This document shows positions 1 through 24,711 of a stretch of DNA of 64,000 bases, one piece after another. Under the pieces are notes generated by a model. It worked only from the letters and a program-made list of their open reading frames with translations. It did not search any database and was not told the origin of the DNA. This DNA comes from a virus: IMG/VR virus record IMGVR_UViG_3300005264_000002, positions 12,087 to 76,086 of that record; one strand, given 5' to 3'. The translations under genes and the position numbers were made by a program. Position 1 is the stretch's first letter. The number at the start of each line of letters is the position of its first letter.

Positions 1-1148
1 TGAATTACAGCATGATTATAAGGGATGATTATATGTTCAGGTGAAACTCTTTTCTCTTTTGTGTCAATATGAGCAATTAAAAAAGAATTGGTCCATTTAT
101 CTCTATGAGGGATATATTCAACATTTGTTACTGCCATACATCCAGTTTCTATCCAGGAGCATTTTCCCATAACTAAATTAGTAAAAACTTCTGTTGATGG
201 CCTATGACAATGACCACTTGTTCCAGACATTCCATATCCTAGATCTTTAAAGTGGCCAGCAACAAAGCAATCATAATAAACTCTATAATTTTGTTTTAGT
301 TCATTTTTTACATCATTTTTAGAGAAAGCAGCTAAATCTAATTTGCATATCATATTGATTTGATACTTATCAAGTCCAAAGACATCCGATAATGATAGGC
401 CCATTACATCAGATAATATAACTCTTAGATTAGGAGTCTTTTCAGATAATAGATTTAATATCCTCCATTCATGATTCCCTAATATAAAATCTATTTGAGA
501 ATTTGGACATAATTCCCTTAATGGAGCAAAGATATTTTTCTTAACATAATCAAATCTTTCTACAATTTTCAATTGTCTAACATCTTGAGAGTATCTTGAG
601 CTTTCGTAGCAATCAAAAACATCACCATTTAAGACAATGACATCAGGTTGAATTCTTGCACAAGTATCAATAAATATAGATAAAACAAATTCATCACAGT
701 CAATGTCATGAAAGTCTGAAGCAGAGATAATTGTTTTATATCTATTTTTATTCTTATTTAGTTGATCAAACTTATTATGATAAGGAAGGACTTCTGTTTT
801 ATAAAAGTTTCTAATTTTATCTAAATGAGCTTGTTTAGCAATATCTCTTTCTAGTTGATGTTGTTTTCTTGACAGTTTTAATCCTGCTTGTCTCTTGAAT
901 TCTTCAAAAGTTCCAAAATATCTATTCCAGGTGGAATCTGAATATTTTCCGTTTGCTCTATAAAAGTTTCTTGAGATTGATTGTAGGGGATATTTTTCTT
1001 GGATTCTTCTGAGGTCATTAGTGCATTGTTCTGGAGTAGCTGAGGGGATAAACTTTTTTGTCTTTTCTGATAGTAGGGCTTTTTGTTGAGTTGTTAATTT
1101 TTGTTGTTTTTTGACTTTCTTCTTTACCTTTTCCTTGGCCTTAGTCAT
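1..1148 (-). CDS. Calcineurin-like metallophosphoesterase with basic/helical N-terminal domain (3' end outside the window)
   Basis: Missing from the ORF track because it runs off the edge. Manual translation from ATG 1148 (AAGGA SD upstream): MTKAKEKVKK...YFGTFEEFKRQAGL...SDFHD...NGDVFD...LGNHE...SGHCHR, i.e. the DxH, GDxxD, GNHE and GHxH motifs. Confidence 0.85.
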   Translation of the reverse strand, partial: MTKAKEKVKKKVKKQQKLTTQQKALLSEKTKKFIPSATPEQCTNDLRRIQEKYPLQSISRNFYRANGKYSDSTWNRYFGTFEEFKRQAGLKLSRKQHQLERDIAKQAHLDKIRNFYKTEVLPYHNKFDQLNKNKNRYKTIISASDFHDIDCDEFVLSIFIDTCARIQPDVIVLNGDVFDCYESSRYSQDVRQLKIVERFDYVKKNIFAPLRELCPNSQIDFILGNHEWRILNLLSEKTPNLRVILSDVMGLSLSDVFGLDKYQINMICKLDLAAFSKNDVKNELKQNYRVYYDCFVAGHFKDLGYGMSGTSGHCHRPSTEVFTNLVMGKCSWIETGCMAVTNVEYIPHRDKWTNSFLIAHIDTKEKRVSPEHIIIPYNHAVI

Positions 1149-10826: not shown

Positions 10827-11540
10827 TTGATAATGAAAGTATTAAATTTTATCATAAATATTTTAAGTAAAACTATTGGAGAATGGCATTTTCCTTGGGT
10901 TGATAAAAAATTTAACCTTAAAGATTATTTTCTGATTGAGGGCCAAATTAGAAAATTATCTTCTCCTTTTGTTGTAGGAGTAGTTAAGACTAATGGTCAT
11001 GGATCAAATTTGTTAATTAGATTCGCTCAATTATTTTCTAAAGATGCAAGAAAAAGAAAAGGTGAAATTACTCATGCATTAGCTCATATTGGAATCTATG
11101 ATGGGTATAAGCATAGAGTTGTTGAATCTTTAGGTGATGGGATAAGAGAACATTCTCTATTGGAATCTATTGGTCAAAGAGATACTGTAATTTTAAGGCG
11201 GCCAAATCCAAAATTTTTAAATCCAACATTATGCAATCATGCCATTGATTATATTAAAGAGGTGGCCAAAAGAGATGCTTTCAATAATATCGAGTATGAT
11301 AATGATCATGACTATAAAACTATCCCAATAGAAGATATTATGGATTACACTAATACTAAGAATCTAAAATTAGATTGTAGCGAGACAGTAATGCAAGCTC
11401 TTGAGCATGGTTTTAGAATGACTGGCCAAGTTAGTATAATCAAAATGGTTAAGAGAGGAGGAAAGCTTACCTGGATACCAGCAGATATACTTTTTTCTGA
11501 TCTTTTTATTACTATGTATGATTCAAGAAAGGAAAAGTAA
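10827..11540 (+). CDS. Permuted papain-like NlpC/P60 (YiiX/YaeF-like) hydrolase
   Basis: His before Cys: ITHALAHIG...VVES...YD...LDCSETV...PADI. Confidence 0.75.
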   Translation: MIMKVLNFIINILSKTIGEWHFPWVDKKFNLKDYFLIEGQIRKLSSPFVVGVVKTNGHGSNLLIRFAQLFSKDARKRKGEITHALAHIGIYDGYKHRVVESLGDGIREHSLLESIGQRDTVILRRPNPKFLNPTLCNHAIDYIKEVAKRDAFNNIEYDNDHDYKTIPIEDIMDYTNTKNLKLDCSETVMQALEHGFRMTGQVSIIKMVKRGGKLTWIPADILFSDLFITMYDSRKEK

Positions 11541-12694
11541 TGGCAGAATATCAAACACTCCTTAAACCTAATGCTTGGATAGATCCTCTTTCGTTAGCGG
11601 ATCATTTAGATATTAAGCATATAAAAATTGACGTAATAGCAAATAAAGCTGAGGTTAATATCCAGGATATTTTATGGCAAGCAATTCTTGGGGGAATTGA
11701 GGGAAATGATTATTCTGTTGAATATACAATTGGAGCTGTTGCAGGATCGGAGGTTGTTTCAACCGTTGCTAATAAGATAGTTATTCAAATTGAAGATGGA
11801 GTTTCTTTAAATAGTCAGATAAAAATAGCATTTGATGCTTTTGTTGTCGCTAATCCTTTAAGTATCGCTTCAAATATTTCTGCTAGTATCGTATCAGACC
11901 TCTCTCCTAATGGGGTTGTTGCTACGCCTTTAATTGGAGGAACTAATCCGGATTCAGAACATGCATCAACTCTTAGAAAATTAGAAAGATTTATTAATAG
12001 AGCTTGTTCCAGAATTGAGCAATATATTGATACATCAGCAATGGCCAAATGTTTCCAGGAAGATCTAGACGCAAATAATTCTAATGTTATTGTCCCTACT
12101 CATTGGCCAGTTAAAAGAATTCATGAAATTAAAATAGATTTTAATCGTCAATTTTCATCTTTTACAAAGCTTCTTCCAGAAAATTATTTCTTAAGAGGAA
12201 CTCCCGATAGAAATAGAAATGACCAGGAAGGAGAAATTTCTGAAGTAGATATGTGTACTCAAATCCTTAATGGAAGTGTTGATATAAATTTAATCGGGAA
12301 TGATATTGTTCTTAGAGATGATAATGAAAGATTTATTGTTGGAAGGATATTTGCAGGATCTTCTTTAGGTTCGATTAGAGTAACTTATGACGCTGGTTGG
12401 ATTGTTGGAAAAGAATCATCTATTGATGAGGATACTGGAACAACTGTTTTTAATTTTTCTTTTATCCCTGATGATTTGGAATATGCAGCAACTCTTCTTT
12501 GTGAATGGTGGTATTTCCAAAGAGATAGGAAAGATCTTGGGATTACTTCCAAAGGTGTTAGGGGAGAAAATTATTCCAAAATCGAAACTGGAATGCCAAG
12601 TGAAATCCAAGATATCTTAGAAGCTTATAGAGATTTTTCTTTTGGTCAACACAATACACCTCAAAGAAATATAATGCTGGATATTGATTCATGA
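11540..12694 (+). CDS. Head-tail adaptor (HK97 gp6/SPP1 gp15-like) carrying an inserted module
   Basis: LADHLDI...LERFINRACSRIEQY, IRVTYDAGW, IPDDLEYA, MPSEIQDILEAYR. Confidence 0.8.
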   Translation: MAEYQTLLKPNAWIDPLSLADHLDIKHIKIDVIANKAEVNIQDILWQAILGGIEGNDYSVEYTIGAVAGSEVVSTVANKIVIQIEDGVSLNSQIKIAFDAFVVANPLSIASNISASIVSDLSPNGVVATPLIGGTNPDSEHASTLRKLERFINRACSRIEQYIDTSAMAKCFQEDLDANNSNVIVPTHWPVKRIHEIKIDFNRQFSSFTKLLPENYFLRGTPDRNRNDQEGEISEVDMCTQILNGSVDINLIGNDIVLRDDNERFIVGRIFAGSSLGSIRVTYDAGWIVGKESSIDEDTGTTVFNFSFIPDDLEYAATLLCEWWYFQRDRKDLGITSKGVRGENYSKIETGMPSEIQDILEAYRDFSFGQHNTPQRNIMLDIDS

Positions 12695-13185
12695 AATTAA
12701 GCCTTTATACAAATGCAGATTTAGTTGTCCGTCAAATGGACAAAGATGCAGCGGCCATTAATAAGGCCATGCAATTTGCTATGTTTAGGGCCGTATCTAT
12801 TTTAGAAGCTGAGATTAAACAAAATATTAGATCAAGATCTGGTTTGCGTGTTAGGACAGGAACTCTTCTAAATTCGATTCAACATCACATATTTATCGGG
12901 AATGGGAGAGTTGAAGCAGAAATAGGTCCAAGAAATGTCCCTTATGCTGCGATTCATGAATTTGGGGGAACTATTCCTTCCAGATTTGTTAGTCCAGTAA
13001 GGAAAAAGGCCTTAAGATTTTTTGATAAAAGTGGAGTCCCAAGATTTTCAAAAGGTCATACCATTCCAGCAATTACTATTAGACCTAGACCATATATCGC
13101 TCCTGCTGTTGAAGCTACTCAAGATAAAATAGCTGAGACTTTTGGAGTATTTATTGAAGAAGCTTTAAAAATGAATGTAGGATAA
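12691..13185 (+). CDS. Tail completion/neck protein (HK97 gp10 / Mu gpG-like)
   Basis: RTGTLLNSI, YAAIHEFGG, IRPRPYIAPA motifs. Confidence 0.85.
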   Translation: MKLSLYTNADLVVRQMDKDAAAINKAMQFAMFRAVSILEAEIKQNIRSRSGLRVRTGTLLNSIQHHIFIGNGRVEAEIGPRNVPYAAIHEFGGTIPSRFVSPVRKKALRFFDKSGVPRFSKGHTIPAITIRPRPYIAPAVEATQDKIAETFGVFIEEALKMNVG

Positions 13186-13188
13186 AAT

Positions 13189-13698
13189 ATGACAAGCTTA
13201 ACACAACCAGAAGTACAAGAAATCGATAGTCAAATCTCAGGCATTAGATCTAAGCGTGGTCGAATAATGGAGGGGTTAAGATTAATTTTTGAACAATCAA
13301 TTAAAAGATCAAATGGATATACTGTTGATTTAGATGAGGCAACTTTTATAATTAGAGGTTGGCAAGATAGAACAAAAGAAACTACTCCTGTTATTTATAT
13401 TGTTGATGATAACCAGAATCGTTCAAGAAATGCTGGATGTTTAAGGAATTATGATTGGGTGATTCAGCTATATGTTCATTATCATGGTGACAATTTAATT
13501 GAATTTGAAGAATTTATTGCTGATGTTGAAGAATGTATTGATGATAATAATACTATTGCTCAACAAATTAATAAAATGGAAGTTGAAAATATTATTTCAG
13601 ATGGACAATTATTTGCTTCTGAAGATACGGCAGAACATCATTTGGCCCAAATTACTCTTGGGATAATTTACACTCGTAAAGCAAGGAATCCACGTTAA
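13189..13698 (+). CDS. Putative tail terminator
   Basis: Size and synteny between the gp10-like gene and tail tube. Confidence 0.6.
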   Translation: MTSLTQPEVQEIDSQISGIRSKRGRIMEGLRLIFEQSIKRSNGYTVDLDEATFIIRGWQDRTKETTPVIYIVDDNQNRSRNAGCLRNYDWVIQLYVHYHGDNLIEFEEFIADVEECIDDNNTIAQQINKMEVENIISDGQLFASEDTAEHHLAQITLGIIYTRKARNPR

Positions 13699-13704
13699 AA
13701 ATCA

Positions 13705-13719
13705 TTGGTGTATATATAT
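13705..13719 (+). promoter_or_regulatory. Putative late promoter (TTGGTGTATATATAT)
   Basis: Identical to 5533-5547; intergenic. Confidence 0.65.
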
Positions 13720-13760
13720 TCTGTAAACCTCATATCACTACAAAATGGGAAGGAACAGAT

Positions 13761-14372
13761 ATGTCACATTATAGATCAAATTCACACATACAAAATCGAC
13801 TACTTAAAATTGAAGATATTTTTCCTGTAAGAGTCTCTGAAGTTCTTGCCTCATTAATTGAGCAAGATTTAACTTTTACAGCAAAAGCTGGAACTGGAGA
13901 GCAAGGTAATTTAATAAATATCATTTATGTAGCTGGAGCCGTAGCTGGAGCTGAAGTTGTTACTGTTGTTGGGAATAATATCGAAGTTCAAATAGAAGAT
14001 GGTGTTTCTGATGCAACTCAAATTAAAGCTGCTCTTGATGGAGAGCCTCTTGCACTTGCTACAATCACAACTTCAATAAGTGGAGTTGGAGCAAATCCTC
14101 AGTCTGTTTTTACTCCTGCTAAGTTTCTTGCTGGTGGAGTTACAGAAATACCTGGTAAGCAAAGATCTTTTGTTTTTCGGCACTTAGCAACTGATGTAAG
14201 AGTTGATGGAAGAGAAATGACCAGTGTTGATTTTCAAGCAAATGGTGGTTTAGATATTACTTTTGATGCTGGTGGATCATCTTTTACTGTCGTTAAAGCA
14301 GATATAACAATTATTAATCGTTTAAGAACTAAGAGATATCTCGTAGATGCCTCTGCAGTTACAATAGTTTAA
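13761..14372 (+). CDS. Virion-associated protein, about half of which is the shared inserted module
   Basis: aa ~27-128 align closely with the insert in the tail tube protein. Confidence 0.7.
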   Translation: MSHYRSNSHIQNRLLKIEDIFPVRVSEVLASLIEQDLTFTAKAGTGEQGNLINIIYVAGAVAGAEVVTVVGNNIEVQIEDGVSDATQIKAALDGEPLALATITTSISGVGANPQSVFTPAKFLAGGVTEIPGKQRSFVFRHLATDVRVDGREMTSVDFQANGGLDITFDAGGSSFTVVKADITIINRLRTKRYLVDASAVTIV

Positions 14373-14381
14373 GGATAAGTC

Positions 14382-14696
14382 ATGAGTAAAGGTAAATATT
14401 TCTTAAAAACTTTAGAGAAAGCAATTTATGCAAATGAAGCTTTTCTTAATGATGAGAAAATTGAGCTTGTAAGTCCATGTTGTGATGGGAATCGAGTCGC
14501 TCATGCTGATGGGGATTTTGTTTGTGATAAAATTAAAGTAGTTCTTAAAGGCAAAAAAAGAATCGCTTATTTTTTTACAGCACCTATTCTTGATGAAGCT
14601 CCTGCTAAGGAAAAACCTGTTAAGAAAAAAACAGCTAAAAAAGTAACCAAAAAAACAGCTAAAAAAGTAACCAAAAAAACAGCTAAAAAAGTATAA
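14382..14696 (+). CDS. Small protein with histone H1-like (KKTAKKVT)n tail
   Basis: 24-nt tandem repeat at ~14625-14692. Confidence 0.7.
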   Translation: MSKGKYFLKTLEKAIYANEAFLNDEKIELVSPCCDGNRVAHADGDFVCDKIKVVLKGKKRIAYFFTAPILDEAPAKEKPVKKKTAKKVTKKTAKKVTKKTAKKV

Positions 14697-14708
14697 GGAA
14701 GGATAATT

Positions 14709-16286
14709 ATGAGAAATCTTAATTCACGTTCATTTGAAGTTTTAGGAGTTGACCAAAAAATTTGGTTGTCTCAAGAAACTGGAGGATATGGAGAGGCTGC
14801 GACAGGGGGCCTAATCCCTGATGAGACAGGAGCAATCGAACACATAACTGCTGATGTCAAATTTGATATTCCTAGAGAGGATTCTGCAGCAAGATCAGGT
14901 AGATCTTTAGTTACTCGATTGAGTGGAAAGATCAATGTAGAATTTTCTTTTGAAAGCTATATTATTCCTGGTACTCCTGATGCACTTGGGAATCCAACTT
15001 TTCCTCCTACTCATGCTTTTATTCTTTCAGCTTTTGGAGATGTTGATACGTCTAATCCTGCTGAAATCGTTTATAAGCTTTCTAGGTTAAATGATAAATC
15101 TTTCAGACTTATTGAAGAAGCAACTCATTACGCTAGGCTTACTACTGGTTGCGTAATTGATACGGTGACTTTTTCTCTCCCTGGAGATGGGAAAGCTCAA
15201 TTTAAGGCTGATGGATTTGCTCAGAATTCTTTTATAGCTGGTGAAGGTAATTTGTCTCAAGCTATAACTGGTGTTGAGCAATTGGCCCAATTAATAGAGC
15301 AAGATTTAACTTTTGATGCCAAGCCAGGTTCAGGAATTAATGGAAATCTTATCAATATTATTTATATTGCTGGTGGTGTTGCTGGATCTGAGGTTGTTAC
15401 TGTTGTTGATAATGATATTGAAGTGCAAATTGATGATGGTGTTTCCAGTGCTCTTGAAGTTAAAACTGCTTTAGATGGGAATATTGATGCAGCAGCCTTA
15501 ATTACCACAACTATAAGTGGTGTCCCTGGTGGTTCACAGTCAATATTTACTCCTGCTAAATATCTAGTAGGTGGGCTTGGAACTAATGATATCAAAGTTG
15601 GAGATGGTGAAGGCAACAGATATGAAGTTGGAGCTTTAATTGATATTATCCAAGGTGTTGATGGCAACACAATCATAGAATCTCAAAGAGAAATCACTGT
15701 TGTTTATGATATCACGAGTCCTAATGCTGATATCATAACAGTTGGTGGAGCTGCTCTTGCTGCTTCTGTAATTGGAGATTTTGTTATTGGCCATGCTCCA
15801 GAAAATTATGATCCAATAACTTCTGAAAATGCTCTTTTAGGTTTAAAGGGATCTTTTTCAGTAGCAGGATATCAACTTTCTGAATGTGAAATGATTACTG
15901 CTGAAATAGCAATAGCAAATAATTATACTAAGAAAGATTTCATTTATGGAACTAATAAAATTTGTGGATATATCCCTGATAAAAGACGTTCTGTAACTTT
16001 GAAAGTAGATGTTCTTTTGAATAAAAATAACTTCTCTTTCTATATGAGAAATAAGAAGTTTGTTGCTGAGAATGTGACTTTGACTCTTGAGCCAAATGAT
16101 ATTCCTGCTCCATCTTTCGCAAGTTCTGTGGGAAGGACTTTTGAATTTAATCTTCCAAAAGTAGAGTTTAATATTCCGTCTATTGAGAATCCTGGTGATT
16201 CTTATGTGACTCTAAGCCTTGAAGGTGTAGCTTTGGCAACATCTACAAATAGCTTAGATGATGAAATGACTCTTACCATTAAGTAA
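14709..16286 (+). CDS. Major tail (tube) protein with nested accessory insertions
   Basis: Tube-like motifs (GCVIDTVTFSLP, EIAIANN, KRRSVTLKV, FEFNLPKVEF); followed by terminator, chaperone and tape measure. Confidence 0.8.
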   Translation: MRNLNSRSFEVLGVDQKIWLSQETGGYGEAATGGLIPDETGAIEHITADVKFDIPREDSAARSGRSLVTRLSGKINVEFSFESYIIPGTPDALGNPTFPPTHAFILSAFGDVDTSNPAEIVYKLSRLNDKSFRLIEEATHYARLTTGCVIDTVTFSLPGDGKAQFKADGFAQNSFIAGEGNLSQAITGVEQLAQLIEQDLTFDAKPGSGINGNLINIIYIAGGVAGSEVVTVVDNDIEVQIDDGVSSALEVKTALDGNIDAAALITTTISGVPGGSQSIFTPAKYLVGGLGTNDIKVGDGEGNRYEVGALIDIIQGVDGNTIIESQREITVVYDITSPNADIITVGGAALAASVIGDFVIGHAPENYDPITSENALLGLKGSFSVAGYQLSECEMITAEIAIANNYTKKDFIYGTNKICGYIPDKRRSVTLKVDVLLNKNNFSFYMRNKKFVAENVTLTLEPNDIPAPSFASSVGRTFEFNLPKVEFNIPSIENPGDSYVTLSLEGVALATSTNSLDDEMTLTIK

Positions 16287-16294
16287 TTTTCTAT

Positions 16295-16323
16295 AAAAGG
16301 GGTCTAGTTTTAGGCCCCTTTTT
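16295..16323 (+). terminator. Intrinsic terminator after tail tube gene
   Basis: AAAAGGGGTCTA-gttt-TAGGCCCCTTTTT hairpin. Confidence 0.8.
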
Positions 16324-16403
16324 ATCTGTGACTCCCCGAAGTGGTATATATGTTATGAGATGGCGAACCAAAAACATATTAATCATAACTTAAGGAGTTA
16401 AAA

Positions 16404-16871
16404 ATGTCTTTGAAACGCTTAAACCCTAATTCTATTTTTAAAATTTGTTCTACTCAAGATCCTGCTATTGATAAAGAGGCAACAGGAGAAGAGAATTTAA
16501 CGAAATATTCTGAAACTCACGATATAGCTTTGCTTAAATTCGTTGAAGGGAAACTTCCTACAATTTTTCATGTAAAAAATATTTCTCCAGAAGATGAAGC
16601 TGAAATCCAAGAGGATCATTATGTTATCCAAATGCCAGATCTCGACAAATTAGAAGGCGAAAAACTTAAAAAAGCAAAACCATCAGTAAAACAGGTTAAA
16701 CAACAACAAATGTTTATGAAATATTTTAAAGCTGGAGTTAAGCATATTGAAGATGATGGGAAGATTGAACCAACATTCACTCCAGGAGAATGGCCATTGT
16801 CAATTCAACAAGAGATCGGTGGATATATTATGATCAAATCTGCTTTAGGAGCAGAAGAAAAAAAGTCTTAA
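16404..16871 (+). CDS. Tail assembly chaperone (gpG analogue)
   Basis: Lies between tube and tape measure; ends in slippery A_AAA_AAG. Confidence 0.8.
   Translation: MSLKRLNPNSIFKICSTQDPAIDKEATGEENLTKYSETHDIALLKFVEGKLPTIFHVKNISPEDEAEIQEDHYVIQMPDLDKLEGEKLKKAKPSVKQVKQQQMFMKYFKAGVKHIEDDGKIEPTFTPGEWPLSIQQEIGGYIMIKSALGAEEKKS
16859..16865 (+). promoter_or_regulatory. Programmed -1 ribosomal frameshift site (A AAA AAG)
   Basis: GAA AAA AAG TCT TAA in frame 0; the -1 frame is open to 17248; AGGAG at 16847-16851. Confidence 0.85.
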
Positions 16872-17248
16872 CTGTCATGATGGGGCTGGCATTAGATCAA
16901 AATCAAAATGTCAAATTAGATTGCTCCAATTGTGACTTGGGACTTCAAAATTTAAGGAATTGCGGTGGGAGGTTTAGAGAGAAGTCTAGATCTCCTATTA
17001 GAGTAAATGAAGAAATTTATTGGATATGTCCAAGATCTTTGATTTTTAATAGGAAGGTAGAAAGTCAACTCTTCAATCTCTATATGACTTGTAAGGACAA
17101 TAATGTTTTTCCTTATGGAGCAGAGCCGCTTAAACAAACGTCCTTTTGTTTAGATGTGTTTAAGTTTTTAGATGGAATTTTAAGTGAATATCACGCCAGA
17201 AAAGACAAAGAACACAAAGCTAAAATGGAGAAGGCCAATAAGATTTAA
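16865..17248 (+). CDS. gpT-like extension of the tail chaperone (fusion ~281 aa), Cys-rich
   Basis: The track ORF 16790..17248 is the -1 frame; contains CSNC..NC...CP. Confidence 0.75.
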   Translation, partial: VLTVMMGLALDQNQNVKLDCSNCDLGLQNLRNCGGRFREKSRSPIRVNEEIYWICPRSLIFNRKVESQLFNLYMTCKDNNVFPYGAEPLKQTSFCLDVFKFLDGILSEYHARKDKEHKAKMEKANKI

Positions 17249-17260
17249 TAGGGAAATGAG

Positions 17261-20200
17261 ATGGCAATTGAAAGGGAAATAAGTGTAAATGTTGTTGGTA
17301 CGGATGAGAATACCAGCAAAACGATACAAAAAGTATCTCAGGCTATAGCTAATCAGCTTGTTAAGGCCACTGCAGCGGCTAATGCTCAATTCAAGCAGAT
17401 GGAAACCAATACAGATAAGACTAATCAGGTTCTCCAGCAAAATCACAAAGCGGCTCAAAAAGTATCAGAACAAAATCAAATGATTGCAGAAAGTCTTGAA
17501 GAAATTAAAGGCAAAGAAGGCATCATTGCCACTATTACATCATCTATGGAAGGTCTTGTTAAAACTGGACTAGGTATAGCTGGAGCTTTTGCTGGGGTAG
17601 TCGCAATTGATAAAACCTTTATTCCTCTTAATGCAATCATGGGGAGCTTAACCAATACTATGATTGGTGCTCAAAATAGAGCTGCTGCAATGTCCACAAT
17701 GTTTAGGCAAACAGCCTCCAAGACATCAATCTTAACTCAAAAATTCAATCAACTAAAATCAAATGGCATTGATGTTATGATCAAGGGATTGAATGTTGGG
17801 AAGACAGCTCTTACCAATACAAGGGCAGTACTTCAAAATTTTACATTCTCTGCTAAAGCATCTGGAGTTATCTTAGCTGGAACCTCTAAAGCCTTTCTAT
17901 CTGCGTCTAAACATACAGAATTATTTGAAAAAGGATTGGCTGGGACTGTAGTAAGAGCATCATTGGCCGGTGCTGCTTTTAATATGTTGGGGATCAACTT
18001 ATTAAGATCAGATAGTATTTTAGGAAAAATGGCAGGAGTAACTCTAATAGCATTAGCAGCCTCTTTGGCCGGTGCTGTCTTTGTCGTTAAACAATTATTG
18101 GCCGCAGTCGGTGGATTGATTCAAAGTATCGGTGACAATTTAACCGCTGCAACTGAAAAGCAGATTGAATTATTTGCTAAGGCCGAAAAGAATACTTTTG
18201 CTTTTACTCAAACTGTTACCAGTTATGCTGAATCGGCGGAAGATGCGGCTGCTCAAACAAATATGTGGAATAGCTTTATTGCTGATACGAGTGCGGCAAC
18301 AGGAGAAACAACAGACTCTCTTCAAGCGTTAGTAGCTGAGACAGTTGCGGCGACAGAAGCAGCTCATCTTAATGAAATTCAAATGAAAGAATTAATTAAT
18401 AGAACAATTGATCTTTCAGAAAGAGCTCATAAACCAGCAATGGATACATTAGTCGCATTGATTAATGGAATGAACGGAGCTGGTCAGTCTGTTATCTCTC
18501 TTGGATTGCATATGAGCGAATCTGCTATCCAACATTCTAAGTTAAATGCAGAAGTAAAAAAGAACTTCAAAAATCTAAGCGATTCTGAAAAGGCTCAAGC
18601 TCGATTTGCTGTACTTATGGAGCAAGCAGGGAAGGCTGCTGGATTTGCTTCTAATAATGCAGATCTTTATAGTAAGTCAGTTAAGCTTCAAGAAAATGCT
18701 CAAAAAGAGCTTAATGCTGAACTTGGTAGGGGTGCAGCGATCATTAATGGCCAATATAGATTTGGTCTGGCCACAGTCACTAGAATGATGACAAATTTTA
18801 TCAAACCTATTCTTCCTGCTATTGGATTCTTAGAAGCATTAGGAGGACGGTTCCTTCAGGTTACAGGATTTATCACTAAAAATATTTTGATAGTTGGATT
18901 TGCAATTAGTACATGGAAAGCTTTCAATATTTTATTGGCCAAAGGTGTTGCTGGTGGAGTATTTGCTCAACAATTACCATTTCTAAATAAATCTATACTC
19001 CAAATTGTGGCCAGTCTTGGAGCAACTAATGCAAATTTAGGAAGTCTCAAAGGTGTTGCACAAACAACTTTTCAAATCCTTAAATCTCAATCTCTAAATG
19101 CAGTCAAATCAATGCTTGGACTTGAAGCTACTGCTAAATTAACAGCAAAAACTTTTTCTACTCAATTAGTTAAAGGATTAAAGGCTGCAGGAAAAGGTGT
19201 ATTGCAATTTGGAAAAAGACTTTTAGTATTATTAGCGAATCCTATTGTCATTAAGTTTGCCCTTATTTCTGCAGCAATCTTTTTAGTAGTTAAAGCTCTT
19301 CAGAAGATTGAAGAAAGAACAGGCATATTTTCAAAGGTATGGGAAAAATTCTCTGCTCAATTCGCTGGGTCTTCTGAGATGTTTCAACCTGTTTTAGATA
19401 TTTTGAAAAAGATAGGAGACATCTTAACGACTGTTATTGGAGCTGCAGTTAAGTTTGTCGCTGCTGCTTTATCTGTTTTTATTGGAAATATATTAAGAAC
19501 TGTTAAAGGTCTTATGTTGCTCTCAAATGTACTATCATTTATGTTGCCTGATGCAATGGTGGCCAGTGCTGAAAGTTTAGAGTCAATTAATAAGCAAATA
19601 GATGTTTTAAATAAAACAGCGAAAGATTTTGCAAAAGAAGGAGCCGCTGATCTATTAGGAATCTTTGTTTCTTCAGCAGAAGCAGCAGATGGTGCAATCC
19701 CAATGGTAAAAGATTGGACTAAAGAATTAGCCAGTGCAGCAGCCGGTGTTGGAAAAATGGAGGAAAAAGCTAAAAAGGCTTTTGAGGCAGTTAAAGATTT
19801 TACTCCTAAAATCAATATGGCCCAATTCCAAAAAGAAACAGCTCAATTTGATACCGCTCTAAAAGGATTAAAGAAAAAACTTGAAGCTCAAAAAATTGTC
19901 TTAATCAAAGCAGGAGCAAATGAAGAAGAGATTAAAACAGTAGAAACTAGGATTTCCCAGACAACAGAAGCAATTAAAGGACTTCAACTAAGATCTGCTA
20001 AAGAAATTCGATCTGCAAGACTTAAAATTGTAGAAACTGAATTAACATCTAGAAAAAATAAAATTTTTACTGTTGAGCAAGAAATTAAACAAATGAGACT
20101 TGATTTTGCTAATGAAACTAGATCACAAGCTATCGAAATTGAGACTCAAAGGATATTAGAGCAAAGGAATCTCGCAACAGATGCAGCCAAGGAAGGGATA

Positions 20201-21406
20201 AGCGTTCGTCAAGCTGCGATTCTTGAAGCAAATAATGTTGAGTTAGAAGCTTTTAGAAGCGGTCTTCAAGCACAAAGTGACTTAGCAATCAATATGGAGA
20301 CTCAAAAGGCCTTAGAATTGGCAAATATTAGAGCTGGAGCTTTAGCTGGAACTCCTGCAGGAGCAGGGGCCAGTGAAGATGTTGAGACATTACAAGCTAA
20401 AGTAAAACAGGAGCAATTGGCCCAATTAAGGGAAAATGATCGAATCTCTGAGCAAGAACATCAGCAAGCATTAACTCAGATTAAAATAAGTCAAATGCAG
20501 GCAAGAACTGAAAGAGAAATTGAGCTGCAAAACAAAAGATCTGAAGCACTAGGATTAACTGAAGCAGGGTTAGAATCTCGTTTAGCTCAAAATGACATAG
20601 TTTTCCAGATGGAAATGGAGCAAATGAGACTCCAGAAAGAAACTATATTTGAAAATGAAGTCCAATTTCAAGAATCAATGAAAGAAATGGAAATTCAGAA
20701 TCAAATAAGCAAATCTGAAACTAGACAGAGATTTATTCAAGAAGAGATTGATCAAAATATTAAGAAAAAAGATAGTTTCGCTGTTTCTTTAGCTCAAATT
20801 CGATTAGCTCAGGCCAAACATGGCCAAGTAATGGGAACATTATTAGGAGTTCAGCAAACAGCAGAATTTAAAGGAGTTCAAGGAGCACTTAGCAATCTAG
20901 CTACTTTAAGAAATTCTAAAGGGAGAAAAGAATTTGAAATTGGAAGAGCTGCTGCTTTGGCAGGAGCCGGTGTAAATATCGCCCAGGGAATAATTGCTTC
21001 ATTAGCTCCTCCTCCAATTGGTGCTGGGCCATTAATGGGGCCAATTTTAGCTGGAACAATTGCCGCTGCTGGTGCTGTTCAGATGGCCCAGATTAGTGCT
21101 CAAAAATATCCTGGTGGACAGGCCGATCAAGGTATGGATTCAATTCCAAAATCATTAAATGGTAAATCTTTTATCTTATCTGCAGGAGAAAGAGTTGTTC
21201 AGCCTGAAGCAAATAAGAAATTAACTTCTTTCTTAGATCAACAAGAGAAATCTGGTGGAGGAGGGAATATTTTCCATATTCATATTGGATCTGTTGATAG
21301 TGATGATAGAGTTGAGCAAGTTGCTCAAAGAGTTAAGAGTATCATTAGAGAAGACTCTGAGAGAGGTGAACCAATTATAAGTGCTAGGGGAGTCGTTAAT
21401 GAGTAA
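17261..21406 (+). CDS. Tail tape measure protein
   Basis: 1381 aa, Ala/Gln-rich helical with hydrophobic segments; C-terminal LSAGERVV motif; follows chaperone. Confidence 0.92.
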   Translation: MAIEREISVNVVGTDENTSKTIQKVSQAIANQLVKATAAANAQFKQMETNTDKTNQVLQQNHKAAQKVSEQNQMIAESLEEIKGKEGIIATITSSMEGLVKTGLGIAGAFAGVVAIDKTFIPLNAIMGSLTNTMIGAQNRAAAMSTMFRQTASKTSILTQKFNQLKSNGIDVMIKGLNVGKTALTNTRAVLQNFTFSAKASGVILAGTSKAFLSASKHTELFEKGLAGTVVRASLAGAAFNMLGINLLRSDSILGKMAGVTLIALAASLAGAVFVVKQLLAAVGGLIQSIGDNLTAATEKQIELFAKAEKNTFAFTQTVTSYAESAEDAAAQTNMWNSFIADTSAATGETTDSLQALVAETVAATEAAHLNEIQMKELINRTIDLSERAHKPAMDTLVALINGMNGAGQSVISLGLHMSESAIQHSKLNAEVKKNFKNLSDSEKAQARFAVLMEQAGKAAGFASNNADLYSKSVKLQENAQKELNAELGRGAAIINGQYRFGLATVTRMMTNFIKPILPAIGFLEALGGRFLQVTGFITKNILIVGFAISTWKAFNILLAKGVAGGVFAQQLPFLNKSILQIVASLGATNANLGSLKGVAQTTFQILKSQSLNAVKSMLGLEATAKLTAKTFSTQLVKGLKAAGKGVLQFGKRLLVLLANPIVIKFALISAAIFLVVKALQKIEERTGIFSKVWEKFSAQFAGSSEMFQPVLDILKKIGDILTTVIGAAVKFVAAALSVFIGNILRTVKGLMLLSNVLSFMLPDAMVASAESLESINKQIDVLNKTAKDFAKEGAADLLGIFVSSAEAADGAIPMVKDWTKELASAAAGVGKMEEKAKKAFEAVKDFTPKINMAQFQKETAQFDTALKGLKKKLEAQKIVLIKAGANEEEIKTVETRISQTTEAIKGLQLRSAKEIRSARLKIVETELTSRKNKIFTVEQEIKQMRLDFANETRSQAIEIETQRILEQRNLATDAAKEGISVRQAAILEANNVELEAFRSGLQAQSDLAINMETQKALELANIRAGALAGTPAGAGASEDVETLQAKVKQEQLAQLRENDRISEQEHQQALTQIKISQMQARTEREIELQNKRSEALGLTEAGLESRLAQNDIVFQMEMEQMRLQKETIFENEVQFQESMKEMEIQNQISKSETRQRFIQEEIDQNIKKKDSFAVSLAQIRLAQAKHGQVMGTLLGVQQTAEFKGVQGALSNLATLRNSKGRKEFEIGRAAALAGAGVNIAQGIIASLAPPPIGAGPLMGPILAGTIAAAGAVQMAQISAQKYPGGQADQGMDSIPKSLNGKSFILSAGERVVQPEANKKLTSFLDQQEKSGGGGNIFHIHIGSVDSDDRVEQVAQRVKSIIREDSERGEPIISARGVVNE

Positions 21407-22211
21407 TACGCAAGGAATAAGCTTTTTATATGAATTTGATTTGGGAAACAAGCATGTTGATGATCCTGCTCAAAATATTTTATCAGTAACCTCTACGGCT
21501 CCAGGTGATTTTGATCCTGCGAACATGACAAGTGAAGCAACAAGAGAAAGATGGCGATCTTCAGGGGTATTGGTAACTCAAGAAATTGTATGGAAAGCAG
21601 AACAAGCATCTAATATTGATACCTTTGCTATCTTAGGACATAATTTTTCTGAGGATGCTGTTATCCAATTACAAGCGAATATTTCTAATAATTTTGCTGC
21701 TCCTCCAGTTACAATAAATATCCCTTGGAGAAAAGAAAATATTGTTTGGTTAAATGAGCTTGGTGGAGAATATGAATATTATAAGATCTCTATTCTTGAT
21801 CCAACAAATCCATGTGGATATATTGAAATTGGAAGAGTTATTGGAGGAAGAGCATTTACCATAACTAATAATGAAGATATTAAAGATGCATTTAATATTG
21901 GCAAAAAAGATATGGCCGATCAAATGAAGACAGAGGGATTTTTTAGACAGTCAAATCAAAGGATAAAGGTTAGAACTTTATCAGCTTCATTTGCAAAATT
22001 AGAAACCAAATTAGGACTATCTAACGAAAATTTCTTAGGACTCAGGGAAATGTTCGATTATGTTGGTGAGACTGTTCCGTTACTAACAATCCTTGATCGA
22101 AATAATCCTGATCTTTTTACTGCTTGGGGACAATTCGATTCGATCCCTTCAGAATCGTTTACAACTAACGAATTTATGACATCTTCTTTTAAATTTAGTG
22201 AAGTTTTCTAA
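21399..22211 (+). CDS. Distal tail-like protein (start revised to ATG 21399)
   Basis: Immediately after tape measure; AILGHNF and YIEIGRV motifs seen in tail-tip proteins; GGGAG SD. Confidence 0.6.
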   Translation: MSNTQGISFLYEFDLGNKHVDDPAQNILSVTSTAPGDFDPANMTSEATRERWRSSGVLVTQEIVWKAEQASNIDTFAILGHNFSEDAVIQLQANISNNFAAPPVTINIPWRKENIVWLNELGGEYEYYKISILDPTNPCGYIEIGRVIGGRAFTITNNEDIKDAFNIGKKDMADQMKTEGFFRQSNQRIKVRTLSASFAKLETKLGLSNENFLGLREMFDYVGETVPLLTILDRNNPDLFTAWGQFDSIPSESFTTNEFMTSSFKFSEVF

Positions 22212-22224
22212 TTGGTGTATATAT
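22212..22224 (+). promoter_or_regulatory. Putative late promoter (TTGGTGTATATAT)
   Basis: 13-nt match to the 5533/13705 motif; intergenic. Confidence 0.6.
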
Positions 22225-22272
22225 TAAATAAGCCAATCAAAACTATCCCAATATTAGAAGAGAGAATATAGT

Positions 22273-24711
22273 ATGTCACAGAACATATTCAAAAATCCAT
22301 TTGTATCATCTCCTCCAACTTTAACAGGAGCATCAGTTGGAAATGGGACATTAACGATAGATCGTTTGACTCATTTCACAATAAACCAAGATTATACTGC
22401 TGTTTGTACAGCGATAACTCCTTTTACTGTTTTTAAAATTATTGGAAGTTTAGATGGATCTGTTGGAGTTGCTGTTGTTGGGACTCAATTCTATGATCAA
22501 GATCTTAAGGTTTTCTTAACTATTAATCAAGGTCCAACTACTTTTCAAATTGGTGATACTTTTGAATTTACTCTTGATCAAGGGACAGATCTAAATAGAG
22601 AAAATATTGATTTATATGATGAATTACCTCAAAAGAATTTTGGGGTAGGTGTTCCAGGCTCAATATCTGGTGATTATAATATCAGATTAAATACTACTGG
22701 AATTGATGCTTTTAGAATTATCCAAGACTTAAAATTCACTTCTAAAATCTCAGGTGCAGAAGGGAATGAAATTTCTATAGAATATCTTGCTGGATCTGTT
22801 TTGAGTCCTGCATCATTAATTATCCAAGATTTAACTTATACTGCTTCACCAGGTGAAGCTGGGAATGGAATATCAATTCTATATACTCAATTCACTCCTG
22901 GAGTTGCGGCCACTAGAGATGTTCAAGATATTAATTGGACAGCAGATAATATTGGGGTAAATGGAAATTATATTTCAATGGTTTATATTGGTGGAGGAAC
23001 TGCTGGTTCTGAAATTGTTAATGTAACAGGGACAGGAACAGGCGGCGATCCATATATAATCACAGTCACTATTGAGGATGGAGTTTCTTCCGCTGATCAA
23101 ATTAGATTGGCCGTTGGACTTCATGGAGTGGCTGGACCGCTAGTTGATGGGATTGCTCTTGGGACAGGATTAGAGCCTCAAAGTATTCAAGCTCAGATCT
23201 TTCTTTTAGGTGGATTAGATCCAATTGGTGACGCTGGAAATGAAGTTGTCAATGTAGTTGCTCTTCAGATTGAAGTTATTTTAGAAAGTGGAGTTTCAAC
23301 TGCTCAAAATGTTTATGATGCTGTTTTTGCCTCTCCTGCTGCTTTAGCATTAGTTACCCCTACAATTTCAGGGACTCCAGCTACAACTCAAACTGCCCCT
23401 GTTGCTGAGGCAAATTTAACAGGTGGAGCAGATGATGTTGGATTACCAGGATCAGAAGTTGTCAATGTATCTGACAAGGCCATTGAGGTCACTTTTAATG
23501 ATGGATTATCTACTGCTGATCAAATTAAAACAGCAATTGAAGGAGATATTGATGCTAATGCCCTGGTTACAGTAACTATTGAAGGTGTTGGGGCCAATTT
23601 CCAAGACTCTCCTGTTGTTAGAACATTTCTTAGATCGGGACAATTGGCCGGGACTTTTGCTTTTAACTCTGAAGAGTTAACCGTTCCTGGTTCTTTTTTT
23701 GAAGGTAATGCCAATATTTTAGCAAACAATCTTAACCTTCAAAATGAATTAAATGTTGAAGGAGAGTCCGAATTTAGAGGAAAAGTTAAATTCGATGATG
23801 CTATTCCAGCAAATAATTCAGGTCCATTAATCGAAAATAATCAAAAAACAATTAATAATCTTATCCAAAATGGAAAAGTTTTTCTTCATACAGTAAATGA
23901 TGAAAAAATGGAGTGGTCAGATCCTGCTGGGACATTAACGCTTTTAGATGACATTAATATTGTATTTTGTGAAACTAATATTGTTAATACAATTCTAGCT
24001 ACTGATGGGCCATTTGTTATTGCTGATGGTGAGCATTTATATGTGACAGTTGATAGAGAGAATAATGTTAATCTTACGACTACAATAGCTTCTACTGTTC
24101 CAAATAGTCCTAATGGAGAAAATATTTTTAGATTAGTTTCTAGGGTAGGTGATTCATTAGTCTGGTTTGATAATACTCTTCAAACTGAAGGCAAGAATAT
24201 TAGAATAGGTGAAGGTGGAGCTGGTGGAGTTGGCTATCAAGAAAAGTTAGGAAATGGCGATGGAGCAGTTACAGCTTTTGGCCCTTTAACTTTTATTCCA
24301 TCTTCTGAAAAATCCATTCTTGTTTTTTCAAATGTTATTAATTTTGTAACAACTGATTGGACATATAATGTAGTCCAAAATCAAATTGACTTTATAACAC
24401 CACCTCCTTTGGGAGCAGAAATTTATGTCTTTTATTTAACAGAAGGTGAAACTTTATCAGTTCCTACTCCAAGTGGAGTAGAACGTGTTGAATATAGAGA
24501 TATAACTTTAGCTGAAGAAACTGCCAAACAATTGACATTAGCAAATCTTCCTGCTGAACCAACTAAAGTTAAATTAGATATTATTGGTGGATCAGCTCAA
24601 AGATATACGGTTGATTTTATTGTTACAGGAAGCATTTTGTCATGGAGTGGTTTAAGACTTGATGGAGTCTTAGTTGAAAATAGTGAAGTAAGGATAAATT
24701 ATTATTCTTAA
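22273..24711 (+). CDS. Modular virion fibre/appendage protein with three self-nested copies of the shared module
   Basis: Three N-halves followed by three C-halves (22702-23643); two small C-terminal beta domains. Confidence 0.75.
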   Translation: MSQNIFKNPFVSSPPTLTGASVGNGTLTIDRLTHFTINQDYTAVCTAITPFTVFKIIGSLDGSVGVAVVGTQFYDQDLKVFLTINQGPTTFQIGDTFEFTLDQGTDLNRENIDLYDELPQKNFGVGVPGSISGDYNIRLNTTGIDAFRIIQDLKFTSKISGAEGNEISIEYLAGSVLSPASLIIQDLTYTASPGEAGNGISILYTQFTPGVAATRDVQDINWTADNIGVNGNYISMVYIGGGTAGSEIVNVTGTGTGGDPYIITVTIEDGVSSADQIRLAVGLHGVAGPLVDGIALGTGLEPQSIQAQIFLLGGLDPIGDAGNEVVNVVALQIEVILESGVSTAQNVYDAVFASPAALALVTPTISGTPATTQTAPVAEANLTGGADDVGLPGSEVVNVSDKAIEVTFNDGLSTADQIKTAIEGDIDANALVTVTIEGVGANFQDSPVVRTFLRSGQLAGTFAFNSEELTVPGSFFEGNANILANNLNLQNELNVEGESEFRGKVKFDDAIPANNSGPLIENNQKTINNLIQNGKVFLHTVNDEKMEWSDPAGTLTLLDDINIVFCETNIVNTILATDGPFVIADGEHLYVTVDRENNVNLTTTIASTVPNSPNGENIFRLVSRVGDSLVWFDNTLQTEGKNIRIGEGGAGGVGYQEKLGNGDGAVTAFGPLTFIPSSEKSILVFSNVINFVTTDWTYNVVQNQIDFITPPPLGAEIYVFYLTEGETLSVPTPSGVERVEYRDITLAEETAKQLTLANLPAEPTKVKLDIIGGSAQRYTVDFIVTGSILSWSGLRLDGVLVENSEVRINYYS

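What the first reader, a model, noticed from the sequence alone, without database searches (positions are those of the whole stretch)
11639..23643. One ~100-aa module inserted in-frame into four different virion proteins (six copies)
Seen: consensus A.LI.QDLTF.A...G..GN.I.I.Y.AG..AG.EVV.V....IEVQIEDGVS.A.QIK.A.......AL.T..ISG.....Q......L.GG. It occurs in the head-tail adaptor (11639-11947, between the first two gp6-like helices), the 203-aa protein (13839-14144), the tail tube (15276-15581, apparently inside another accessory insertion) and three times in 22273..24711. The copies at 13839 and 15276 are still similar at DNA level (e.g. GAGCAAGATTTAACTTTT and GTTGTTACTGTTGTT are shared), implying recent spread. 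Known: the terminal L.GG.D signature resembles the insertion domains of contractile sheath proteins, yet no sheath gene is evident here. Inference: a loop-insertable surface module with adjacent N and C termini has spread over the neck, tail and fibre. It would be a non-Ig counterpart of promiscuous Ig-like decoration, for adhesion or shielding, or a protein-level selfish insert.
Basis: partly seen in the sequence, partly recalled or inferred. Interest (0 to 1): 0.8.

Follow-up and report, generated by a model that had tools for sequence, protein, structure and literature searches.

The report
Self-nesting sheath-like decoration domain in siphophage
A roughly 100-residue surface domain, folded like the outer domain of contractile-tail sheath proteins, has been spliced in-frame into loops of the neck adaptor, a small tail protein, the tail tube and a tail-tip protein of an uncultured non-contractile phage, and in the tail-tip protein it is inserted into itself three deep. 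It belongs to a large unnamed family that is gained and lost in many phage structural proteins.

Summary
An HMM built from three copies finds six modules in four genes and nothing else in the window.

The copies are real in-frame indels. Syntenic relatives have adaptors of 252-269 aa against 351-384 aa, and tubes of about 415 aa against about 525 aa. The 203-aa protein is a roughly 95-aa protein plus the module, and other lineages carry the module at a different site in that same protein.

The three copies in 22273-24711 are nested (N N [N C] C C), not tandem. AlphaFold2 with a 56-sequence alignment gives pLDDT 95.8. The nine best structural matches out of 48,161 chains are all tail sheath proteins (Z 7.8, 7.2, 6.0), and the best three align to the sheath's exposed insertion domain. 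Sequence links to Pfam PF17481 fall below its threshold. The genome has no sheath gene.

The family is large: 1,488 clusters at 50% identity, about 57 host-protein groups, and nesting up to eight deep. It has no name, no Pfam model and no BLAST-detectable relative in 50,697 GenBank phage records.

Function was not tested. The most likely role is an exposed, dispensable decoration for adhesion or bracing. "Recent spread" is overstated. The same scan noted this stretch twice on this genome and found it on no other DNA.

The parts
11540..12694 (+). Head-tail adaptor gene (384 aa), host protein 1
   Evidence: PF24163 HCP 27.8 bits (cut-off 27) and phrog_442 head-tail adaptor E=2.4e-09. Orthologues without the module are 252-269 aa.
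11639..11947 (+). Module copy in the adaptor (aa 34-136), inserted after the first N-terminal helix. This is the most divergent copy.
   Evidence: HMM E=4.1e-43, though this copy was part of the seed. It is a clean indel against L010, L012 and L013 adaptors.
13761..14372 (+). 203-aa protein: a conserved small protein of about 95 aa just upstream of the tube gene, plus one module. Host protein 2.
   Evidence: [quoted passage not shown]
13839..14144 (+). Module copy in the small protein (aa 27-128), at insertion site 1
   Evidence: L009, L027 and L038 orthologues carry the module at a different site, about aa 70. This copy nests within the tube-module clade.
14709..16286 (+). Tail tube gene (525 aa), host protein 3
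   Evidence: PF18906 Phage_tube_2 31.7 bits (cut-off 27) and phrog_290. L012 and L013 orthologues without the module are 416 and 415 aa.
15276..15581 (+). Module copy in the tube (aa 190-290), at the N-terminal edge of a second accessory domain of about 90 aa that all orthologues keep
   Evidence: On the rooted tube tree, its absence in L012 and L013 is a secondary loss.
22273..24711 (+). 812-aa tail-tip protein, downstream of the tape measure and the 276-aa protein and upstream of the minor tail and fibre genes. Host protein 4.
   Evidence: No Pfam or PHROG family. Neighbours are tail genes. All orthologues keep the N N N C C C cassette.
22711..22794 (+). N-half of the outermost module (aa 147-174)
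   Evidence: In the model it forms three strands, like the N-half of a complete module.
22810..22893 (+). N-half of the middle module (aa 180-207)
22909..23217 (+). Innermost, contiguous module (aa 213-315)
   Evidence: HMM E=1e-12. Model residues 71-176 align to sheath chains 9gb1 (Z 7.8) and 3hxl (Z 7.2).
23227..23427 (+). C-half of the middle module (aa 319-385)
   Evidence: HMM E=3.4e-10
23440..23640 (+). C-half of the outermost module (aa 390-456)
   Evidence: HMM E=2.2e-12. Sheath hits with 86-90 aligned residues span model residues 1..323.

Best explanation
The module is an independently folding domain of about 100 residues: three strands, then strand-strand-helix-strand-strand. Its fold matches the exposed insertion domain of contractile tail sheath proteins, and it is probably a distant homologue of that domain. 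Its N and C termini lie next to each other, so the whole domain can be placed in-frame into a surface loop of another protein without disturbing the host fold. In this non-contractile phage it has been placed in the neck adaptor, a small protein encoded next to the tube gene, the tail tube and a tail-tip protein. In the tail-tip protein it has been inserted into its own strand3/strand4 loop twice over. That gives an out-and-back stack of three domains whose two ends return to the host protein. Lineages gain and lose it, and at least one copy here (in the small protein) appears to derive from the tube copy. Shown: the repeat, the indels, the different insertion sites, the nesting, the fold match, and the size and anonymity of the family. 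Inferred: that the copies are exposed on the outside of neck, tail and tip. Also inferred: that the module acts as a non-enzymatic, dispensable decoration. I think the most likely role is low-affinity adhesion to cell-surface polymers, with contacts between neighbouring subunits as the second choice.
For: Repeat significance. In-frame indels against syntenic orthologues. Two insertion sites in the same small protein. Two sites in PF18906 tubes, plus presence in an SU10-type adaptor, a bona fide sheath and other virion proteins. About 57 host-protein clusters among 306 unique carriers. Loss within the tube clade, which shows the module is dispensable. Copy history. Fold: AlphaFold2 pLDDT 95.8, pTM 0.78. 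The nine best of 48,161 chains are all sheath proteins; 9gb1 scores Z 7.8 and 3hxl Z 7.2 with 21% identity, both over the exposed insertion domain. Foldseek's list is also enriched in sheath proteins. Weak but full-length PF17481 hits occur in 6 of 21 homologues, best E=2e-4. The only PDB sequence hit is 3hxl, at the same region. Nesting: N and C counts are equal in 57 N N N C C C proteins and about 23 N N C C proteins. P0131 equals an L027-type single-module protein plus exactly 102 extra residues, which form a complete module inside the outer one. Sheath hits span model residues 1..323 with only 86-90 aligned residues. Exposure and dispensability of the corresponding sheath domains are described in PMC3004832, PMC6088184 and PMC9230969.
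Against: No binding or localisation data exist. The family has no cultured representative. I could not inspect model coordinates or the predicted error matrix, so the pairing of the outer N and C halves rests on alignment ranges, comparative indels and geometry. Homology to the sheath domain is weak at sequence level: below the Pfam cut-off (22.2 against 31.4 bits) and hhalign probability 3%. A Z of 7-8 is in the range the tool itself calls common. No conserved polar patch was identified that would mark a ligand site. Most invariant residues are Gly, Ala, Val, Leu or turn residues.
Confidence: 0.7

Rival explanations
1. The module is a structural brace. Copies on neighbouring tube, adaptor or tip subunits contact each other or the host protein and stiffen or stabilise the virion, rather than binding the cell.
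For: Extra sheath domains have been proposed to cement neighbouring subunits (phage 812 domain II, quoted in PMC9230969). The module is conserved at 40-68% identity between hosts, which could reflect a common contact surface.
Against: It is lost cleanly in close relatives without compensating changes. It works in about 57 unrelated host contexts. In pyocin-type and T4 sheaths the surface domain is reported not to contact other subunits (PMC6088184; PMC3004832).
Confidence: 0.2
2. The module is a docking system. Modules on the neck, tube and small protein bind the module stack of the tail-tip protein or other fibres, holding them folded along the tail until host contact.
For: The structurally corresponding outer domain I of T4 gp18 binds the retracted long tail fibres, and mutations in it block retraction (PMC3004832). 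The same module sits on both the tail shaft and a tail-tip protein in this genome.
Against: There is no evidence of homotypic binding. Relatives keep the tip cassette while lacking the module on tube and adaptor (L012, L013), so the tip cassette does not depend on shaft copies.
Confidence: 0.07
3. The module is an ancient core part of these proteins that some lineages have deleted, not an insertion.
For: On the rooted tube tree, the module-free tubes nest inside module-bearing ones, so absence there is a loss.
Against: The same small protein carries the module at two different sites in different lineages, and not at all in others. PF18906 tubes carry it at aa 25 or aa 190. The closest homologue of the L017 sheath lacks it. 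The Pfam and PHROG models of the hosts match the flanking sequence on both sides of it.
Confidence: 0.02
4. The module is a selfish insert, such as an intein-like or homing element, that spreads for its own benefit and is removed or is neutral.
For: In-frame, precise boundaries and many host genes.
Against: No Hint, intein or endonuclease family matches any copy. The junction residues are not splicing residues, read directly. The module is 100 residues of strand and helix with no nuclease. Third codon positions are strongly diverged while the protein is conserved, which indicates selection on the protein.
Confidence: 0.01

Closest known systems
Exposed insertion domain of contractile tail sheath proteins (Pfam PF17481 Phage_sheath_domII; DSY3957 3HXL residues ~93-180; phiCD508 9GB1 ~98-203)
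   Same: Fold: the three best structural matches (Z 7.8, 7.2, 6.0) and the nine best overall are sheath proteins. Size is about 100 aa. Both share an N-terminal strand-A-x3-G-x2-GN-x-I motif and a C-terminal L-x-GG end. Both are inserted in a loop with adjacent termini, lie on the surface and are dispensable, and both occur in 'Russian doll' nesting (PMC3004832, PMC6088184).
   Different: The window's hosts are not sheath proteins and the genome has no sheath gene. Scores are below the Pfam cut-off and the profile-profile match is weak and covers the N-half only. The C-half has its own conserved pattern (G-x-E-V-V ... D-G-V-S-T-A-x-Q-I-K). It is promiscuous across about 57 host groups. It nests in itself. 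In the one true sheath that carries it (L017) it is additional to the canonical domain.
Ig-like decoration domains of phage structural proteins (Big_2, I-set, FN3; Fraser et al. 2006, cited as ref. 72 in PMC9230969)
   Same: An accessory domain scattered over unrelated virion surface proteins, gained and lost between close relatives, non-enzymatic, with weak adhesion as the presumed role (PMC9230969).
   Different: Different fold: it contains a helix, and its best structural matches are sheath domains rather than Ig domains. No Ig-type Pfam hit. From my own knowledge, Ig-like domains are usually added at a terminus, sometimes through a frameshift, whereas this module is inserted into internal loops.
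Out-and-back domain topology of flagellin, hook proteins and T4 gp18
   Same: The chain leaves the core, builds successive outer domains and returns, so each outer layer is an insertion in the layer below (PMC3004832; flagellin comparison in PMC9230969).
   Different: In those proteins the layers are different folds. Here the same domain is recursively inserted into its own loop: three deep in the window, eight deep in P0006.

Membership tests
Pfam PF17481 Phage_sheath_domII | Sequence score at or above the curated gathering cut-off (31.4 bits) | tested here: not met
   The window copies give no hit at E<=1. The best homologue (P0140) scores 22.2 bits, E=2e-4, covering profile positions 3-97 of 98. 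6 of 21 members have weak hits.
Pfam PF17481 Phage_sheath_domII | Fold of the exposed insertion domain in solved sheath structures | tested here: met
   Model residues 71-176 against 9gb1_1 98-203: Z 7.8, rmsd 3.0, 96 aligned. Against 3hxl_A 93-180: Z 7.2, 21% identity. Against 9ezm_A: Z 6.0. Ranks 1-9 of 48,161 chains are all sheath proteins.
Pfam PF17481 Phage_sheath_domII | Profile-profile homology to canonical sheath proteins | tested here: inconclusive
   hhalign of A4 against A5: probability 3%, pairwise E 0.015. Only module residues 1-38 align, to sheath 89-125, which is the right region. The PDB profile search finds only 3hxl, E=1, at chain 88-119.
Pfam PF17481 Phage_sheath_domII | Resides in a tail sheath protein next to PF04984 and PF17482 | tested here: not met
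   The hosts are an adaptor, a tube, a small protein and a tip protein. The record has no PF04984 or phrog_23 match. In the L017 sheath the module sits upstream of the canonical domain as an extra.
Ig-like phage decoration domains (Big_2, I-set, FN3) | Match to an Ig-type family model | tested here: not met
   No such Pfam hit at E<=1 in the four window proteins or in 10+10 homologues.
Ig-like phage decoration domains (Big_2, I-set, FN3) | All-beta Ig sandwich fold | tested here: inconclusive
   Each module has one or two helices in the model. No Ig-domain chain is among the listed structural matches, but absence from a list does not exclude a fold.
Ig-like phage decoration domains (Big_2, I-set, FN3) | Promiscuous, patchy presence on virion surface proteins | tested here: met
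   About 57 host clusters. Patchy among syntenic relatives.
Inteins / Hint-domain protein-level inserts | Hint or endonuclease domain and splicing residues at both junctions | tested here: not met
   No Pfam or PHROG hit of that kind. Junctions read have no Cys/Ser/Thr plus His-Asn pattern.
Head-tail adaptor (PF24163 HCP / gp6-like), host of copy 1 | Family score at or above the cut-off in the non-module part | tested here: met
   PF24163 27.8 bits against cut-off 27, at residues 302-366. phrog_442 E=2.4e-09, at residues 148-364.
Tail tube PF18906 Phage_tube_2, host of copy 3 | Family score at or above the cut-off in the non-module part | tested here: met
   31.7 bits against cut-off 27. phrog_290 E=2e-10.

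The most novel reading that the evidence does not exclude
The module is a shared docking surface. Copies along the neck, tail shaft and small protein hold the module stack of the tail-tip protein (or other fibres) against the tail until host contact. The structurally corresponding outer domain of T4 gp18 holds the retracted long tail fibres in this way. Recursive self-insertion would then be the means by which phages tune the length of an out-and-back stalk (three modules here, eight in P0006).
Probability: 0.08. Interest if true: 0.85.

Novelty: new variant of a known kind. Interest (0 to 1): 0.7.

Why it matters
Accessory domains on phage surfaces are known mainly from the Ig-like families. 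This finding adds a second large family that has gone unnoticed: 1,488 clusters at 50% identity, no Pfam model, no name, no cultured phage.

It has three unusual properties. It links the outer domain of contractile sheaths to proteins of non-contractile phages. It enters internal loops rather than termini. It can be inserted into itself repeatedly, giving stacks three to eight deep. That last property is a rare protein architecture and raises folding questions, because the two parts of the outermost domain can lie about 700 residues apart.

Its tolerance of roughly 57 host contexts suggests it could serve as a natural, loop-insertable display scaffold. A family model would also improve annotation of many "hypothetical" virion proteins in metagenomes.

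Tried and rejected
- Single-sequence AlphaFold2 of the cassette was useless (pLDDT 41). The run with a 56-sequence alignment was needed.
- A phmmer search of one module against PDB sequences gave only a chance hit.
- Foldseek against the PDB gave no match at E<=0.001, although sheath proteins led the list.
- tblastn of the tube, of P0005 and of P0004 against 50,697 GenBank phage records found nothing.
- The search for related loci with P0002 alone found no relative. With A1 it failed for lack of a conserved stretch. A4 worked.
- hhalign against canonical sheaths was weak.
- An Atlas search with the non-module C-terminus of P0002 gave no lead, so the function of the small host protein stays unknown.
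- Six literature searches found no earlier description of this module outside sheaths or of self-nesting. The library is incomplete, so this is weak evidence of absence.
- The intein or homing idea was rejected: no such domains or junction residues.
- "Recent spread" was rejected on third-position identity.
- I considered a covariation test of which N-half pairs with which C-half. I did not run it, because 57 nested sequences give too little power.
Full report
**Setting.** The window is bases 12087-76086 of a 76-kb IMG/VR virus record estimated to be 91% complete. The finding lies in a same-strand structural gene block:
- adaptor, 11540-12694
- tail-completion protein, 12691-13185
- a 169-aa ORF
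- the 203-aa protein, 13761-14372
- a 104-aa ORF
- tail tube, 14709-16286
- two overlapping chaperone-like ORFs
- tape measure, 17261-21406
- a 276-aa protein
- the 812-aa protein, 22273-24711
- minor tail and fibre genes

The record has no match to the sheath families PF04984 or phrog_23, and the gene order leaves no room for a sheath gene. The phage is therefore non-contractile.

An HMM built from the three single copies scores only the four named genes among all six-frame ORFs. The copies in the 812-aa protein were not in the seed and score 1e-12, 3.4e-10 and 2.2e-12. The best unrelated ORF scores 0.68. The whole record holds the same eight pieces and no more. Splitting the model into an N-half (about 30 aa) and a C-half (about 68 aa) shows one N and one C in the adaptor, the small protein and the tube. 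The 812-aa protein has the order N N N C C C.

**The copies are insertions, and they are also lost.** Five syntenic IMG/VR relatives were fetched through the tube protein, and more through the module.
- Adaptors are 351-384 aa with the module and 252-269 aa without it. Tubes are 519-532 aa with it and 415-416 aa without it. In both cases a single clean gap separates well-aligned flanks.
- The 203-aa protein is the orthologue of a 94-107-aa protein present in L010-L013, with the module inserted after about residue 26. In L009, L027 and L038 the same small protein carries the module after about residue 70. Two sites in one orthologous protein mean at least two independent insertions.
- A second group of PF18906 tubes (L018 type, 491-501 aa) carries the module at residues 25-120 instead of 190-290.
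- On a tube tree made without the module columns and rooted on that second group, the two module-free tubes nest inside module-bearing ones (97/96 and 96/95 support). Their state is therefore a secondary, precise loss.
- A module tree places the small protein's copy inside the tube-module clade, next to the window's and L010's tube copies (98/93). It was probably copied from the tube lineage. The event is not recent: DNA identity is 68.6%, third-position identity is 52.9%, and only 39 of 69 identical residues use the same codon.

**Fold.** A single-sequence prediction failed. With 56 orthologous and analogous N N N C C C sequences (A3), AlphaFold2 gave pLDDT 95.8 and pTM 0.78 for residues 140-466 of the 812-aa protein. 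Each N-half is three strands with a short turn helix. Each C-half is strand, strand, helix, strand, strand.

An exhaustive structural comparison with 48,161 PDB representatives put nine tail sheath proteins in ranks 1-9. The innermost, contiguous module (model residues 71-176) aligns as follows:

| Chain | Protein | Chain residues | Z | rmsd (Å) | Aligned | Identity |
|---|---|---|---|---|---|---|
| 9gb1 | phiCD508 sheath | 98-203 | 7.8 | 3.0 | 96 | 10% |
| 3hxl | DSY3957 | 93-180 | 7.2 | 3.1 | 87 | 21% |
| 9ezm | Halogeometricum sheath | 88-208 | 6.0 | 3.1 | 94 | 12% |

Foldseek's weaker list is also led by sheath chains. Z values of 7-8 are not decisive on their own. The exclusive run of sheath proteins agrees with three sequence-level observations:
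- Six of 21 family members have weak PF17481 hits, best E=2e-4 over profile positions 3-97 of 98.
- The only PDB sequence hit of the family profile is 3hxl, at residues 88-119.
- hhalign aligns module residues 1-38 to the same sheath region, at low probability.

I conclude that the fold similarity is established and distant homology is probable. Membership of PF17481 is not met.

One IMG/VR locus, L017, encodes a true sheath (phrog_23 E=1e-53; PF04984 and PF17482). It carries the module, at 58% identity to the window's copy, as an extra insert immediately upstream of its canonical outer domain. Its nearest homologue lacks the module. The module is therefore a mobile relative of the sheath domain, not the sheath's own domain.

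**Nesting.** Four lines of evidence favour module-in-module insertion over separate N and C arrays.
- N and C counts are equal in 57 N N N C C C and about 23 N N C C proteins of the sample.
- The innermost N and C form one sheath-like domain in the model. Several sheath chains align 86-90 residues, about one module, over a model span of 1..323. That span can only be the outermost N plus the last C. Other small domains align over 37..217 to 50..241, which corresponds to the middle pair.
- P0131 equals an L027-type small protein with one module, plus exactly 102 further residues. These begin and end with the module's own terminal motifs and lie in the strand5/helix loop of the outer module. This second self-insertion site shows that a whole module enters as one block.
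- Linkers of 4-6 residues on both sides require adjacent termini, the same property that allows loop insertion elsewhere.

I could not view the model's coordinates, so I put nesting at about 85%. P0006, from another metagenome, has eight N-halves followed by eight C-halves.

**Family size and status.** The profile finds 1,488 cluster representatives at E<=0.001 and 658 at E<=1e-10 among 1.84 billion. In the word-indexed database, named hits are called "hypothetical protein" or have no name. None has a Pfam domain over the module.

After masking the module, 306 unique carriers fall into about 57 groups. This is a rough count by single linkage. The groups include gp6-type and SU10-type adaptors, two tube groups, a sheath, "virion structural proteins" and fibre-like proteins.

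BFVD structural matches are uncharacterised proteins of uncultured phages. GenBank phage records give no BLAST hit. GTDB genomes give 11 loci, all in metagenome-assembled genomes. Six literature searches found no description.

**Mechanism.**
- *Shown:* a compact domain with adjacent termini, added to and removed from loops of virion proteins without loss of the hosts' family signatures.
- *Inferred from established structures:* sheath outer domains face the solvent and are not needed for assembly (PMC3004832; PMC6088184; PMC9230969). The insertion point in the adaptor lies between its N-terminal helices. The insertion point in the tube lies beside another accessory domain. The copies are therefore most likely displayed on the outside of neck, shaft and tip.
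- *Function:* the module has no catalytic-looking residues, and its invariant positions are mostly Gly, Ala, Val, Leu or turn residues. I favour low-affinity adhesion, as proposed for Ig-like and extra sheath domains, over bracing.
- *Docking:* this role is possible by analogy with T4 gp18 domain I, which binds retracted fibres. It is weakened by relatives that keep the tip cassette but lack the shaft copies.

**Verdict.** The finding is real and was read largely correctly. It is a new, large, unnamed family of loop-inserted phage decoration domains with the sheath outer-domain fold, notable for recursive self-insertion. Function remains untested.

Noticed in passing
window 14382-14696 (+): A 104-aa ORF between the small protein and the tube gene ends in a lysine-rich tandem repeat (KKTAKKV-type units). 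L011 has a shorter counterpart, and L010's small protein also has a K-rich tail. No family match.
   Followed up: no
window 16404-16871 and 16790-17248 (+): Two ORFs overlap by about 80 nt directly upstream of the tape measure gene and are conserved in all relatives. Their position and layout fit the tail assembly chaperone pair usually joined by a programmed frameshift. No slippery site was examined.
   Followed up: no
window 15582-15845 (tube aa ~291-378): The tube has a second accessory domain of about 90 aa immediately after the module. All orthologues keep it, including those that lack the module. The core is about 415 aa, roughly twice a typical tube protein.
   Followed up: partly
window 12200-12290 and ~12400-12445 (adaptor aa ~222-250 and ~288-302): The window's adaptor has two further short lineage-specific insertions relative to its orthologues. 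L010 shares the second.
   Followed up: no
P0006 (969 aa, Logan metagenome contig): Eight N-halves followed by eight C-halves of the module, which would be an eight-deep nest spanning about 800 residues.
   Followed up: partly
L017:5673-7475 (IMG/VR 3300037264_002906): A true tail sheath protein carries the module (58% identical to the window's copy) as an extra insert just upstream of its canonical outer domain. The nearest homologue, P0232, lacks it.
   Followed up: yes
P0131 compared with L027:4786-5415: A module is nested in the strand5/helix loop of another module. This differs from the usual self-insertion site, the strand3/strand4 loop.
   Followed up: yes
P0022 (407 aa) compared with window 22711-23640: A small-protein homologue carries a whole N N N C C C cassette. 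Its junction motifs resemble those of the tail-tip cassette, and it is 40% identical to the window's cassette. The triple nest may move as a unit.
   Followed up: no
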